Assembly: GCA_013331805.1 (NCBI GenBank) | Contig: DUFS01000083.1 | Coordinates: 3,268 to 21,010, forward strand | DNA length: 17,743 nucleotides | DNA from: Candidatus Micrarchaeota archaeon | Lineage (GTDB): Archaea > Micrarchaeota > Micrarchaeia > Anstonellales > Anstonellaceae | Direction of reading: 5' to 3' | Program-made: the position numbers | Shown here: positions 15,001 to 17,743 of the stretch, piece after piece | Layout of the letters: every line of letters begins with the position of its first letter | Position numbering within the stretch: position 1 is the stretch's first letter

Positions 15001-17743
15001 TCGGAAAACTCGGGCTGCATGGCTTCCTTGAGGCACACCGCCTTTGCCGCAATTGCGTGGTCGAACGGGCCGCCCTGAAGCCCGGGAAAGACGGCCTTGT
15101 CTATCATCTGCTGGAATTCCTGCTTGCAGAGTATCATCGCCCCGCGAGGCCCCCGCAGCGTCTTGTGGGTGGTGGTGGTGATCACGTCCGCATGGGGGAA
15201 GGGCTGCGGATGCACACCGCCAGCAATTAAACCTGCGATGTGCGCCATGTCCACCATGAAGTGCGCATCGGTGGCTTCGGCGATTTCGGAAAACCTCTTG
15301 AAGTCCACCTGGCGGGGATAAGCGGTGTAGCCAGCCACAATGAGCTGGGGCTTTTCCTCCTTTGCCAATCTTTCAATCGCGTCGAAATCCAGCCTGTGCG
15401 TTGTCGGGTGCACGTTGTAGGGTATTATTTTGTAGACCTTGCCAGAAAAGTTGACCGGGCTTCCGTGGGTGAGGTGGCCCCCGTGCGAAAGGTTCAGGCC
15501 CATAATCTTGTCACCTGGCTGAAGGAGGGCGAAATAGGCAGCCATGTTTGCCTGCGAGCCTGCGTGCGGCTGAACGTTGGCATGGTCTGCATGGAAAATC
15601 TGCTTTGCCCGGTCTATTGCAAGATTCTCGCAGCCGTCCACGAACTGGTTGCCCCCGTAATAGCGCTTGCCCGGGTAGCCTTCGGAATACTTGTTGGTGA
15701 GCACGCTCCCTTGAGCTTCCATGACCGCAAGCGAGGCGAAGTTTTCGGACGGGATGAGCTCCAGGCCCTCGCGCTGGCGCTGCAGCTCCATCCTTGCAAG
15801 GTGGTAGATGTCCGGGTCGGTTTTCTGGACGTTATCCATTGGCATGCTTCGCACCTCTTGAATCGGTCAGTCCTTGCCCACTGCCTGCTCCACTATTTTG
15901 ATCGATTCGCCGATGTAGCTTTTCGGGTCGAACAGCAGGGCAAGCTCTCCCTTTTTGATGAATTTCAGGACATCCTTGTTGGAGGAGAGCACGTCGAGCA
16001 TTTTTTTCTTGCTGCTGAAGGATTCCATTGCGCAGTTACGCATAAGCTCGTGCGCCTGCTGGCGGCCCATGCCCTTTTCGGTGAGCGCAATCATTATCCT
16101 CTCGGCCATCACCGCGCCGCCAGTTAGCTCCAGGTTCCTTGCGATGTTTTCAGGATAGAACTGCAGGCCCTCAAGGATCTTGTTCATTTCCAAAAGCATG
16201 TAGTCCGTCACAATGAACCCCTGGGTGAATATGAAGCGCTCGTTTGCCGAATTCGATAGGTCGCGTTCGTGCTCCAGGGGGATGTTCTCGAGTGCGACCG
16301 CAACGTTGGCGCGCACCAGCCTTGCAAGCGAGCAGACCCGCTCGCTCTTGTGGGGGTTCCTCTTTTGCGGCATGGTGGAGGAGCCCACCTGCTTGCTTCC
16401 AAATGGCTCTGAGATTTCCATTATTTCGGTCCGCTGCAGGTTGCGGATTTCCTTGGCGATTTTCTCAAGTGTCGCTGCAATCAGCGCAAGGGTGAAAAGG
16501 GCCTGAGCGTGCCTGTCGCGCTGCACCACCTGGTTGGTGACCTGCGCAGCCTTGATGCCAAGCTCCTGCATGACAAGGGACTGGATTTTCGAGCCCTTGC
16601 CCCGGAAGGTGGCCATGGTGCCTGCTGCCCCAGACATCTTGCCAACCGAAATCATCTGCTCTGCCTGGTCCAGCCTCTCCATGTGGCGGCCCATTTCGGA
16701 AAACCAGAGCGCGAACTTCATGCCATAAGTGGTGGGGACCGCGTGCTGGCCGTGCGTCCTTGCTATGCAGACCAAATTCTTGCGCTCAATTGCATGCCTT
16801 TTCAGCAGGGCCCTTGTTGCAAGCAGCCTTTTTCTTATGATCCCGATTGCCCGCTTGAGCGTGAGCGCTGTTGCGGTGTCCTCTATGTCATAAGAGGTGG
16901 CGCCGAAGTGAACAAAGCCCCCGTATTTTTCGCACTTTTCCGAAAGCGCCCTCACCATTGCCATCAGGTCGTGGTGTATTTCGGCCTCGATTTCTTCCAC
17001 GCGGGCAAGCTCCACTTTTTGCGCTGCCTGGCTTATTTCTTCAGCTGCCTGGGAAGGAATGTTCTTGAGCTTGGCATGAGCATTGGCAAGCGCCACTTCC
17101 ACCTCAAGCCAGGACGCAAGCTTCGCCCCCTCCTCAAAAAGCGCGTTCATCTCGGTTTTGTACCTTGAGTCTATCGGAGACACAACCATGGGAATCCACC
17201 CTAATGCGGGGAAGTCCTTGGGCTGAACCCAATAACTCAACATCCAGCCCCCCGCACATGAATTATGTCATCAGGAGAATTTAAATGTTCTTACCCGTCA
17301 GGTGAAAAAATTCGAAAAAAAGTGCTGATCCAGGAAATGCGATTCCTGTCCCCTCATTTTTTCTGAAGAAAAAATGCGGATGCACATTCCTGCGGGAATG
17401 AATCCGGCATTTATTCAAGAATAAATGCGGATGCCGGGACGACAAACTGCGCAGCAGTTTGGCGGCTTTTTCCGCAGCAGCGGAAAATAGGCAGCCGCAT
17501 TGAGCGAAGCGAAATGCGGATGCCGGGATTTTCACCAAGAGAACACCACCATTTTCTTTTGGGGTGGAGCCCTCAGCCCTTTTCTTTTCGGAAAAGAAAG
17601 GGGATATGGGTTTGAACCCGGACCATTGACTTTCTTTTAGACCTTTTCCCGCTTTTCCGTGGACGCTTTTTCGAGCGTACCCATCTGGAGCGAGAAAAAG
17701 GGTCCTTGGAAGGCCAAGATACTAGCCAGGTTATACTACATCC

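What a model noticed while it worked through the whole genome (the two positions that open the first line are those of the whole stretch)
17645..17708. Order-wide structured RNA element (family A) that forms mobile tRNA introns
A ~64-nt RNA element, 5-prime NRAC-C-CUUUU-[variable hairpin]-AAAAG-C-GUYN-ACGGAAAA, occurs 9 times in this genome (plus a decayed copy in tRNA-Tyr, C71:301-363). The first 10 nt pair with AAAAGCGUYN, so it is one long hairpin with a conserved single-stranded ACGGAAAA tail. It makes up introns at different places of different tRNA genes: anticodon loop 37/38 of Gly-UCC C56:20912-20975, Pro-UGG C14:41-104, Arg-CCU C68:993-1060, Leu-UAA C47:537-600, and, in a long form with two extra hairpins, Glu-CUC C50:1426-1570 and Ser-GGA C11:18707-18848; D-loop of Val-GAC C62:16493-16556. 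It matches no Rfam family and is a new, mobile intron family of Micrarchaeota (order Anstonellales).
Evidence so far: nhmmer/CM hits in own genome; no Rfam hit at E<=1; CM R1 finds it in 53 of 151 Anstonellales genomes, 19 of 22 of the genus, up to 18 copies per genome; in relatives it sits in anticodon loop, D-loop and T-loop of tRNAs (two copies in one tRNA-Leu) and inside 23S rRNA in 3 of 20 loci; tRNAs that are intron-free here (Gly-CCC, Asp-GUC) carry it in relatives; on 41 copies 93.8% of cells pair, 9 of 16 pairs change on both sides, covariation score 0.343 against <=0.063 for slid partners and 0.101 for shuffles; cutting the introns out by coordinates gives tRNAs that ARAGORN accepts.
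(Added by a program. Inside this text positions count along the whole contig: contig position 3,268 is position 1 of the stretch shown here. "Call 12" and the like, gene names such as g00115 and contig names such as C1 are that model's own, and its searches are not shown. The text may have been shortened before it was handed on; [...] marks where a part breaks off. The agent that wrote the report below was given it as the finding of a first reader that could run no searches.)

Follow-up and report, generated by a model that had tools for sequence, protein, structure and literature searches.

The report
Mobile hairpin repeat inside tRNA intron
The flagged stretch is the core of a 75-base intron in a glycine tRNA gene of a tiny archaeon, and that core is one copy of a small hairpin repeat scattered through tRNA genes, rRNA genes and gene ends in several archaeal phyla, so it may show how such introns arise.

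Summary
On the minus strand, window 17653-17705 is a 53-nt hairpin plus ACGGAAAA tail (my covariance model, E 2e-19). It is the 5' part of a 75-nt intron (17631-17705) at position 37/38 of tRNA-Gly(UCC). Six of 23 genomes of the genus carry the same tRNA without this intron, two of them with exactly the exon-exon junction I predicted. The gene has a second, 82-nt T-loop intron (17529-17610) with a strict bulge-helix-bulge (BHB) motif. The genome encodes an epsilon2-type splicing endonuclease and RtcB. The stem covaries strongly on an alignment not fitted to the model. The 5' strand also pairs with a downstream complement that forms the outer BHB helix. The family is not order-limited. The same core occurs in MAGs labelled Aenigmatarchaeota (up to 39 copies in one genome), Altiarchaeota, Thermoplasmata and Woesearchaeota. 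About 14% of 138 copies lie outside tRNA and rRNA genes, at stop codons and tRNA 3' ends. Four of these are flanked by 8 to about 50-nt direct repeats. Splicing and the way the element moves are not shown, because no RNA data exist.

The parts
17706..17743 (-). Exon 1 of tRNA-Gly(UCC): acceptor 5' strand (its first two bases lie beyond the contig end), D arm, and anticodon stem and loop up to CTTCCAA.
   Evidence: Relatives start GCGGATG. Contig C56 ends at window 17743.
17631..17705 (-). Intron 1, 75 nt, at position 37/38. A run of A allows the registers 17632-17706 and 17633-17707 as well. It is the family-A core plus a 22-nt 3' part.
   Evidence: Excision gives tRNA-Gly(tcc). Intron-less alleles in 6 of 23 genus genomes, 2 with 0 mismatches to the predicted junction. 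Relaxed BHB: ttggc CTTC CA|A ggacc...ggtct a AAAG AA|A gtcaa.
17653..17705 (-). Family-A core, 53 nt: hairpin plus 8-nt tail. This is the unit that is repeated.
   Evidence: CM R1, 81.7 bits, E 2.2e-19. BLAST matches to other contigs cover only this part. DNA contigs of four metagenome runs join 17653-17706 to many other contexts.
17696..17705 (-). S1, GGACCCTTTT: the 5' strand of the stem. It is also the 5' strand of the outer BHB helix.
17661..17670 (-). S2, AAAAGCGTCC: the 3' strand of the hairpin, with a conserved C.C mismatch.
   Evidence: 12 pairs, 90.9% of cells paired, covariation 0.337 against <=0.085 for slid partners.
17653..17660 (-). Tail ACGGAAAA. GGAAAA is invariant in 35 aligned copies.
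17639..17647 (-). S3-like segment AAAAGGTCT, a second complement of S1. It forms the outer helix (h) of the BHB-like fold.
   Evidence: MFE fold at -33.6 kcal/mol pairs GGACC with GGTCT. The same feature is seen in about half of the copies.
17631..17637 (-). Strand AAAG, which pairs with anticodon-loop bases 32-34, plus the AAA that holds the 3' splice site.
   Evidence: Orthologous introns have GAAG here, giving 4 of 4 pairs.
17611..17630 (-). Exon 2: GTCAA TGGT CCGGG TTCAAA.
17529..17610 (-). Intron 2, 82 nt, in the T loop at 59/60. It belongs to a different repeat family ('B') and has a strict hBHBh' motif.
   Evidence: ccggg TTCA AA|C cca...tgg TGAA AA|T cccgg. Relatives lack it or carry unrelated sequence at this site. 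One metagenome contig replaces it by 122 other letters.
17515..17528 (-). Exon 3: T CCCGG CATCCGC A, the 3' end of the tRNA.
17426..17439 (-). A second, identical copy of exon 3, part of a 17-nt direct repeat TCCCGGCATCCGCATTT. The two copies start 89 nt apart, with 75 nt holding two hairpins between them. No BHB was seen at this second copy.

Best explanation
Window 17631-17705 (minus strand) is an archaeal, protein-spliced (BHB-type) intron at position 37/38 of the genome's only detected tRNA-Gly(UCC) gene. The gene carries a second intron in its T loop.

The first 53 nt of the intron are one copy of a small non-autonomous repeat. It consists of a stem of about 10 bp (NRAC-C-CUUUU / AAAAG-C-GUYN) with a conserved C.C mismatch, an inner hairpin that can be lost, and an 8-nt A-rich tail.

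The repeat spreads, or is exchanged, at the DNA level among transcribed regions, always in the sense orientation. It persists in tRNA and rRNA genes because its 5' end sits exactly at the 5' splice site. There its 5' strand pairs with a downstream complement to form the outer helix of a strict or relaxed BHB. The epsilon2-type endonuclease of these organisms can cut such motifs, and RtcB then joins the exons.

Shown here: the repeat, its stem covariation, the exon junction, the presence/absence polymorphism, the enzymes, and the BHB-like folds.
Inferred: splicing itself, and mobility.
Unknown: the enzyme or process that inserts the element, and what reads the invariant stem and tail.
For: 1. 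Junction. Removing 17631-17705 and 17529-17610 gives a 74-nt tRNA-Gly(tcc). 6 of 23 genus genomes hold the same tRNA without intron 1, two of them identical to the predicted 34-nt junction. 6 of 23 hold a family-A intron at that site. The remaining 11 matched neither pattern.
2. Need for splicing. No intron-less Gly-UCC copy was found in the own genome (0; 1 interrupted copy).
3. Enzymes. There is one EndA gene, whose best solved relative is 4fz2_A at E 2.4e-94. PMC3488258 (search listing) and PMC3239211 (passages read) describe that enzyme type from ARMAN-2 as cutting both strict and relaxed BHB motifs. RtcB is present.
4. BHB. Intron 2 has a strict motif. For the 34 of 77 copies where a single excision gives an ARAGORN tRNA, the best accepted excision is a strict hBHBh' in 14, a relaxed form in 19 (the window copy among them), and other in 1.
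5. Repeat family. 10 own-genome copies; 44 of 151 genomes of the order.
6. Stem. 12 pairs, 90.9% of cells paired, covariation 0.337 against <=0.085 for slid partners and 0.112 for shuffles (0 of 500 as high). The closing pair occurs as GC 13, CG 7, UA 6, AU 4.
7. Hosts. Of 138 copies inspected, about 114 are in tRNA genes (anticodon, D and T loops of more than 25 tRNA species or positions), 4 in 23S rRNA and 20 elsewhere. All tRNA and rRNA copies are in the sense orientation.
8. DNA-level insertion. 4 of the 20 non-tRNA copies have direct repeats that abut the element (8, 11, 18 and about 50 nt), against 0 of 118 tRNA/rRNA copies. One of them splits an ORF into a 417-aa and a 57-aa frame.
9. 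Range. The exact core is found in 80 loci of MAGs from several phyla, with 16, 6, 5, 1 and 39 copies in five such genomes and in the same kinds of places.
Against: - No RNA run holds this organism, so neither splicing nor the excised intron has been seen.
- The window copy has only a relaxed motif: the central helix pairs at 3 of 4 positions, and one extra base faces the 5' bulge.
- In one search the best BHB was chosen among up to several hundred excisions that ARAGORN accepted. This inflates the counts. My rough chance estimate for a strict motif is about 0.08 per copy; it was not computed by a control.
- 43 of the 77 copies gave no ARAGORN tRNA after one excision. These include copies with a second intron, copies at contig ends, and rRNA and non-tRNA copies.
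- The classification of the 138 copies was made by reading the flanks, not by a tRNA model.
- Only 4 copies show clear flanking repeats, two of them at the same gene. tRNA copies show none, so the tRNA introns may arise in another way.
- No candidate mobility gene tracks the element. RVT_1 is found in 2 of 5 carrier genomes. Y1 transposase occurs only as fragments in the own genome.
- Gain and loss at the Gly-UCC site were not told apart, because no species tree was built.
- The phylum labels are the submitters' titles of MAGs, and mis-binning of short contigs is possible. Hits do, however, lie on a complete 742-kb chromosome and on contigs of 145 kb and 536 kb.
Confidence: 0.8

Rival explanations
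1. The hairpin plus tail is a host-useful small RNA, such as a protein-binding or guide RNA or a minihelix-like processing signal. It would be made by excision from introns and by processing of 3' regions of mRNAs and tRNAs. Its spread would then reflect function rather than selfish mobility.
For: The stem, the C.C mismatch and GGAAAA are invariant across phyla while the inner hairpin varies or is lost. The closing pair includes the first intron base, so the stem fits the excised intron better than the splicing substrate. Copies start exactly at stop codons and tRNA 3' ends.
Against: Copy number varies from 0 to 39 per genome. Three of 22 genomes of the genus and 107 of 151 of the order lack it at E<=0.001. 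Copies split or duplicate gene starts. No known RNA family matches. No expression data exist.
Confidence: 0.15
2. The element is a single-strand-DNA hairpin repeat of the REP/RAYT or IS200/IS605 mini-element kind, moved by a Y1 (HUH) transposase. The covariation would then reflect a DNA hairpin rather than an RNA.
For: It is an imperfect palindrome with a fixed-length 3' extension, sits behind stop codons and has a strict orientation, as REP elements do (this comparison is from my own knowledge). Y1_Tnp matches exist in the own genome, one of them 25 nt before the window start.
Against: That family leaves no target duplication (own knowledge), whereas 4 copies here have 8 to about 50-nt direct repeats. 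The Y1 matches are partial (profile positions 49-121, 80-121 and 6-57). No copy of the element lies next to them. Co-occurrence across genomes was not tested.
Confidence: 0.12
3. The introns are old and vertically inherited. The shared core would be kept alike by gene conversion between introns, and the pattern of presence and absence would come from losses only, with no insertion into new sites.
For: Orthologous introns of Gly-UCC share their tRNA-specific 3' parts (xGAAGxxA). Core identity is 87-96% whatever the host tRNA or genome. Precise loss would give the intron-less alleles.
Against: Copies occur in more than 25 tRNA species or positions, in 16S and 23S rRNA, in protein genes and between genes. 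Some have flanking direct repeats. The same core and partly the same inner hairpins occur in different phyla.
Confidence: 0.1
4. The copies are solitary CRISPR-repeat-like units. A hairpin followed by exactly 8 nt ending in GAAAA resembles a repeat with its 5' handle.
For: The minimal form is 29-31 nt long, which is the size of a repeat. Three putative viral contigs carry it.
Against: No arrays were seen: 79 of the 80 loci hold a single copy, and L172 holds two. No Cas1 match above the cut-off and no Cas6 match in 5 carrier genomes.
Confidence: 0.03

Closest known systems
Related introns at different positions of different tRNA genes in Thermoproteales ('large-scale intron transposition'; Fujishima et al. 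2010, known to me only through PMC4090602, PMC3239211 and bioRxiv 10.64898/2026.10.13.758758, of which I read passages)
   Same: [quoted passage not shown] They depend on BHB splicing by a broad-specificity endonuclease. The mechanism of spread is unknown and is thought to act on DNA.
   Different: Here the shared unit is a defined 53-nt (minimally about 30-nt) hairpin with a covarying stem and an invariant tail. It always sits at the 5' splice site. It also occurs in rRNA and outside introns, sometimes with flanking direct repeats. It is shared by several phyla, whereas those families are described within one order (I could not read the original paper).
Disrupted tRNA genes of Candidatus Micrarchaeum acidiphilum ARMAN-2 and its epsilon2 splicing endonuclease (PMC3239211, passages read; PMC3488258, search listing; PDB 4fz2)
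   Same: The same phylum and the same type of endonuclease (E 2.4e-94 to 4fz2_A). Many introns at 37/38 and 59/60, two introns per tRNA, and relaxed BHB motifs.
   Different: The passages I read describe no shared intron sequence family. The introns tested there are short (13 and 25 nt).
Bacterial REP/REPIN elements with RAYT transposases, and mini-elements of IS200/IS605 (from my own knowledge, not tested)
   Same: Short imperfect palindromes in many copies, placed just behind genes, with an orientation bias and no coding capacity.
   Different: No partner transposase was identified. Some copies have direct repeats. Most copies lie inside tRNA genes, where they must be spliced out.
MITEs
   Same: Small, non-coding and multi-copy. 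In many tRNA copies the ends are inverted repeats (RACCCUUUU...AAAAGGGUY). Some copies have target duplications.
   Different: The duplications vary from 8 to about 50 nt. The non-tRNA copies lack the second inverted repeat. The orientation is strictly sense. No parent transposon is known.
C/D box sRNA inside the tRNA-Trp intron of Euryarchaeota (from my own knowledge)
   Same: A functional RNA carried within, and released from, a BHB intron.
   Different: I saw no C or D boxes in the core. It is present in dozens of different tRNAs.

Membership tests
Archaeal BHB (endonuclease-spliced) intron | It interrupts a tRNA or rRNA gene, and its removal restores a normal gene. | tested here: met
   (74-nt tRNA-Gly tcc). 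(natural intron-less alleles with the same junction).
Archaeal BHB (endonuclease-spliced) intron | A bulge-helix-bulge motif (3-4-3, or a relaxed HBh'/hBH form) at the exon-intron junctions. | tested here: inconclusive
   The window copy is only relaxed: the central helix pairs at 3 of 4 positions, the loop at the 5' site is 3x1, and the 3' bulge and anticodon stem are canonical. A strict motif is present in intron 2 and in 14 of 34 other testable copies.
Archaeal BHB (endonuclease-spliced) intron | A splicing endonuclease of suitable specificity and an RtcB ligase are encoded. | tested here: met
   (EndA, nearest to 4fz2_A). (RtcB).
Archaeal BHB (endonuclease-spliced) intron | The spliced tRNA and the excised (often circular) intron are seen in RNA. 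| not testable with these tools
   No RNA run is listed for this organism.
Transposed tRNA intron families (Thermoproteales type) | Near-identical intron sequence in different tRNA species and positions within a genome. | tested here: met
MITE | Terminal inverted repeats and a target-site duplication of fixed length. | tested here: not met
   Inverted ends occur only in part of the tRNA copies. Duplications were found in 4 of 20 non-tRNA copies, with lengths 8, 11, 18 and about 50 nt.
REP/RAYT or IS200/IS605-derived hairpin element | A hairpin recognised by a co-resident Y1 transposase; insertion without target duplication. | tested here: inconclusive
   Only fragments of Y1_Tnp in the own genome. 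Direct repeats at 4 copies argue against it. Co-occurrence was not tested.
CRISPR repeat / solitary repeat unit | Repeat-spacer arrays, or cas genes in the carriers. | tested here: not met
Any Rfam 15 family | A match at the family's gathering score. | tested here: not met
   (0 matches in the window). (nothing on the element; best is mir-1896, E 5.2, on the other strand).

The most novel reading that the evidence does not exclude
Family A is a cross-phylum, non-autonomous mobile element that itself creates new protein-spliced introns. It would insert, sense-oriented, into transcribed DNA of tRNA, rRNA and protein genes. In several cases it leaves duplications that run from the transcript's 5' end (tRNA +1, or within 3 nt of the ATG) to the insertion point, which points to insertion linked to transcription (an R-loop) or templated by RNA. 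Its invariant stem with the C.C mismatch and its 8-nt tail would be the recognition site of an enzyme not yet identified. This would supply the missing mechanism of archaeal intron gain, and it would be transferable between DPANN lineages and Thermoplasmata.
Probability: 0.35. Interest if true: 0.9.

Novelty: new variant of a known kind. Interest (0 to 1): 0.75.

Why it matters
How archaeal tRNA and rRNA introns are gained is an open question. [quoted passage not shown]

Here one short, well-defined element is found in three states:
- as an intron, in dozens of tRNA positions and in rRNA;
- as a polymorphism, with the same tRNA gene carrying or lacking it within one genus;
- as a plain insertion at gene ends and gene starts, in some cases with flanking duplications.

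Having these states side by side makes the question testable, both by comparative population genomics and by biochemistry with an endonuclease type that has already been crystallised.

There are also practical consequences. ARAGORN finds only 19 tRNA genes in this genome and none in the window. Many copies lie at contig ends, so the repeat breaks assemblies and hides tRNA genes in DPANN MAGs.

Tried and rejected
- RNA evidence. No RNA holder is listed among 19 runs, so expression and splicing could not be examined.
- DNA contigs of four runs laid on 17200-17743. No contig joins across intron 1. They show only that the two repeats continue into many other contexts, and that one contig replaces intron 2 by 122 other letters.
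- Strict BHB at intron 1. None was found.
- ARAGORN with its intron option finds no tRNA in the window or in C56.
- Rfam at gathering score and at E<=10. Nothing for the element.
- Retroposition by a resident reverse transcriptase. RVT_1 is present in only 2 of 5 carrier genomes.
- CRISPR-repeat reading. No arrays and no Cas1 or Cas6.
- IS200/IS605 link. Only fragments of Y1_Tnp, none beside a copy.
- C/D or H/ACA sRNA, K-turn, promoter (BRE/TATA) and terminator readings of the core were considered by eye only. They were dropped for lack of the defining boxes and were not tested.
- An RNase P / minihelix reading of the stem plus tail was considered. A sister family ends in ACCA-AAAA. It cannot be tested here.
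- Earlier notes of this scan looked up by place and by sequence gave nothing.
- Fujishima et al. 2010 is not held.
- One hit in a MAG titled Clostridia bacterium (L217) lies in coding-looking sequence, and its closing pair does not form. I treat it as doubtful.
- 4 of the 7 viral-contig hits lack the 5' strand and look like chance matches of the 18-mer.
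Full report
WHAT IS IN THE WINDOW. The finding lies on the minus strand at the very end of contig C56; the window end is the contig end. 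Read on that strand, the sequence starts inside a tRNA: GGATG TA GTAT AACCTGGCTA GTAT C TTGGC CTTCCAA. This aligns with the intron-free tRNA-Gly(CCC) of the same genome.

The tRNA body resumes 75 nt later (GTCAA TGGT CCGGG TTCAAA). It resumes again 82 nt after that (T CCCGG CATCCGC A).

Removing window 17631-17705 and 17529-17610, and adding the two 5' bases that lie beyond the contig end, gives a 74-nt tRNA-Gly(tcc) that ARAGORN accepts. Relatives start GCGGATG. ARAGORN finds nothing in the untouched window.

Cutting them out together with the second intron yields an 85-nt 'tRNA-SeC(tca)'. Cutting them out alone yields nothing.

A NATURAL CONTROL FOR THE BORDERS. I searched the 23 genomes of the genus for the predicted exon1-exon2 junction. 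Six carry it, two of them with no mismatch over 34 nt. Six, the own genome included, carry a family-A element at exactly that site. Eleven matched neither pattern.

The sequences show that the anticodon-loop intron and the T-loop intron vary independently. Both are present in G000, G112, G044 and G032. Only the first is present in G110 and G096. Only the second is present in six genomes, where it takes at least five unrelated forms.

So the 75-nt stretch is gained or lost as a unit. A run of A leaves the register ambiguous by up to two bases. The own genome has no uninterrupted Gly-UCC gene, so the interrupted one presumably has to work.

THE REPEAT. BLAST of the region against the genome matches only the 53-nt 5' part of intron 1. 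A covariance model built from five own copies finds 10 places in the genome. It finds 44 of 151 genomes of the order at E<=0.001, 19 of 22 of the genus, 25 of 41 of the family, and at most 18 copies in one genome.

On a MAFFT alignment of 35 copies that was not fitted to the model, the 12-pair stem NRAC-C-CUUUUnnn / nnnAAAAG-C-GUYN has 90.9% of cells paired. Its covariation score is 0.337, against at most 0.085 when the partners are slid and 0.112 for shuffles (0 of 500 as high). The closing pair occurs as GC 13, CG 7, UA 6 and AU 4. The C.C mismatch and GGAAAA are invariant.

TWO PAIRINGS FOR THE 5' STRAND. In tRNA-Pro(UGG) on C14 the junctions form a textbook hBHBh' motif: ctagg TTTG GG|T gaccctttt ... 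aaaagggtc CAAG AA|A cctag. Here the 5' strand of the repeat pairs not with the internal AAAAGCGUC but with AAAAGGGUC, which begins with the AAAA of the 'tail'.

A complement of this kind lies 0-10 nt behind the tail in roughly half of the copies. The duplex z-score is below -2 in 18 of 36, although some of the best duplexes picked the tRNA's own T arm.

For the window copy, the minimum-free-energy fold of the anticodon arm plus intron (-33.6 kcal/mol) pairs GGACC with the downstream GGTCT, and UUUUCUCGCU with AGCGGGAAAA. The 5' splice site sits in a 3-nt bulge.

In the BHB register the central helix pairs at 3 of 4 positions (CUU with AAG, C35 opposite A). One extra A faces the 5' bulge. The 3' bulge and the anticodon stem are canonical. 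Orthologous introns in G096 and G112 have GAAG there, which gives 4 of 4 pairs.

Because the closing pair of the confirmed hairpin includes the first intron base, which must be unpaired in the bulge, the hairpin and the splicing substrate are alternative folds. The hairpin fits the excised intron, or a DNA hairpin. This last point is inference.

SPLICING MACHINERY. The genome has one EndA gene, a 290-aa frame cut short by masked bases. Its best solved relative is 4fz2_A (E 2.4e-94 over residues 4-283), far ahead of the other endonuclease types. [quoted passage not shown] RtcB is present. Intron 2 of the window has a strict motif at 59/60.

Among 77 copies, 34 give an ARAGORN tRNA after a single excision. 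For these the best accepted excision is strict in 14, relaxed in 19 and neither in 1. Choosing among many accepted excisions inflates these numbers, and no shuffled control was run.

WHERE THE COPIES SIT. I read the flanks of 140 model hits from 40 genomes of the order. Two were duplicates, which leaves 138.
- About 114 lie in tRNA genes, all in the sense orientation. They occupy the anticodon loops of more than 20 tRNA species, the D loop of tRNA-Val, and the T loops of Tyr, Ala, Leu, Lys and others. Several tRNAs hold two copies.
- Four lie in 23S rRNA, with HBh'-like junctions.
- Twenty lie elsewhere.

In the own genome the two non-tRNA copies begin at the TAG stop of a protein gene. Elsewhere the first three bases of the element supply the stop codon (TGA in L038; TAA in G029_L086), or the copy follows a tRNA 3' end by one or two bases (G046).

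Four of the 20 are flanked by direct repeats that abut the 5' end of the element. Their lengths are 8 nt (L038, which splits an ORF into 417 and 57 codons), 11 nt, 18-21 nt and about 50 nt. The last two are independent duplications of the start of the same gene in two genomes. No tRNA or rRNA copy has such repeats.

These repeats are the signature of insertion into DNA, and their variable length fits no classic transposase. The non-tRNA copies end at the tail and lack the downstream complement. The moving unit therefore seems to be the 53-nt core, and the BHB-forming 3' part is specific to each tRNA.

NOT AN ORDER-LEVEL FAMILY. An exact search of one genome per species for CCCTTTT-N15-45-AAAAGCGTTCACGGAAAA returned 84 stretches, of which 80 loci are listed. 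By my count of the record titles:
- 22 are Micrarchaeota, Micrarchaeia or Anstonellaceae;
- 18 are Aenigmatarchaeota (12 MAGs);
- 9 are Thermoplasmata (4 MAGs);
- 5 are Altiarchaeota or Altiarchaeales;
- 1 is Woesearchaeota;
- 1 is a Clostridia bacterium (doubtful);
- 24 are unlabelled archaea.

The hits include a complete 742-kb chromosome and contigs of 145 and 536 kb. The model finds 16, 6, 5, 1 and 39 copies in five of these genomes. The contexts are the same as in the order: D, anticodon and T loops, 16S rRNA, directly behind TAA, TAG or TGA, and behind tRNA 3' ends.

In two Aenigmatarchaeota MAGs the first 14-16 nt of a tRNA are followed by the element, then a near-complement of those 14 nt, a spacer, and then the intact tRNA. 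This is a duplication that starts at tRNA +1, just as the gene-start duplications above start within 3 nt of the ATG.

Some inner hairpins are shared across phyla. For example, CTTTCTTGTAAGAAAG occurs in an Altiarchaeota MAG and in a 23S intron of the order. Three of 7 viral-contig hits carry a minimal 29-nt form without an inner hairpin; the other four look like chance.

WHAT MOVES IT IS UNKNOWN. Reverse transcriptase is present in only 2 of 5 carrier genomes. Y1 transposase appears only as fragments. Cas1 and Cas6 are absent. No Rfam family matches. No RNA data exist.

COMPARISON WITH WHAT IS KNOWN. The closest described phenomenon is the set of related introns at different positions of different tRNAs in Thermoproteales. 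These are read as transposition of unknown mechanism (PMC4090602 and bioRxiv 10.64898/2026.10.13.758758, passages read; the original paper is not held). The disrupted tRNAs of ARMAN-2 give the enzymology.

Five full-text searches found no description of a shared structured intron core in DPANN archaea. Earlier notes of this scan on other genomes describe small hairpin repeats in tRNA and rRNA introns and at gene ends of Woesearchaeota-, Aenigmatarchaeota-, Micrarchaeota- and Iainarchaeota-like MAGs. They agree with the wider picture but are unchecked, and I did not show that they concern the same sequence family.

VERDICT. The interpretation as a structured, mobile intron-forming element is largely right but too narrow. 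It is a cross-phylum hairpin repeat that forms introns where it can be spliced, and that also sits at gene ends and starts. Splicing and the mechanism of mobility remain inferences.

Noticed in passing
window 17529-17610 (-): The second intron of the same tRNA lies in the T loop (59/60), is 82 nt long and has a strict hBHBh' motif. It belongs to another repeat family, with the motif GGGCTCCACCCCAAAAGAAAA, also seen in the T-loop intron of tRNA-Glu(CUC) on C50. A sister form in relatives (GGACCTTTTT-hairpin-AAAAAGCTCC-ACCA-AAAAG) has the same build as family A.
   Followed up: partly
window 17426-17442 and 17512-17528 (-): The tRNA 3' end TCCCGGCATCCGCATTT is present twice. The copies start 89 nt apart, around a block of two hairpins with CUGCUGC loops. 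A third partial copy (GTGCATCCGCATT) lies further downstream. Relatives have arrays of hairpin plus ...TCCGCA modules behind this tRNA. This looks like insertion with a long direct duplication, or repeated integration scars.
   Followed up: partly
window 17426-17499 (+): A weak Rfam match (22.2 bits, E 0.084, gathering score 41) to RF04247, the Hac1/Xbp1 non-canonical intron. It is caused by twin hairpins with GCAGCAG loops and is probably chance.
   Followed up: no
G000 C50:1426-1570, C11:18707-18848, C46:8615-8783, C68:~1850-1920: Long forms of family A carry a nested pair of hairpins whose loops, UCGAAA and UUUCGA, are complementary to each other. The same pair occurs on its own on C68. This is a second small repeat that inserts into the first.
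   Followed up: no
G000 C56:3022-3243 (25 nt before window position 1), C28:24389-24514, C42:1532-1690: Partial matches to the Y1 (IS200/IS605) transposase profile.
   Followed up: no
G000 C72:27-2753 (-): RtcB lies in one 960-aa open frame. The profile is split into two pieces about 1.4 kb apart, which suggests an intein or another large insertion.
   Followed up: no
G000 C79:540-1151 (+): A reverse-transcriptase (RVT_1) match in a 403-aa frame.
   Followed up: no
G000 C14:44-96, C47:545-597, C68:1001-1057, C71:309-360, C56 end: Many copies of the repeat lie within about 1 kb of contig ends. The repeat seems to break the assembly, and ARAGORN finds only 19 tRNA genes in the genome.
   Followed up: no
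L038, L151, L152 (G070): In this genome the repeated unit is longer. All three copies share about 60 nt behind the tail (tctttagaaaaaagaaagagtttttgggtgaagcc...).
   Followed up: no
window 14595-17243 (-): The neighbouring genes on the tRNA's strand look like serine hydroxymethyltransferase (419 aa) and an adenylosuccinate-lyase-type enzyme (458 aa). This is judged by eye from the translations; no family search was run.
   Followed up: no
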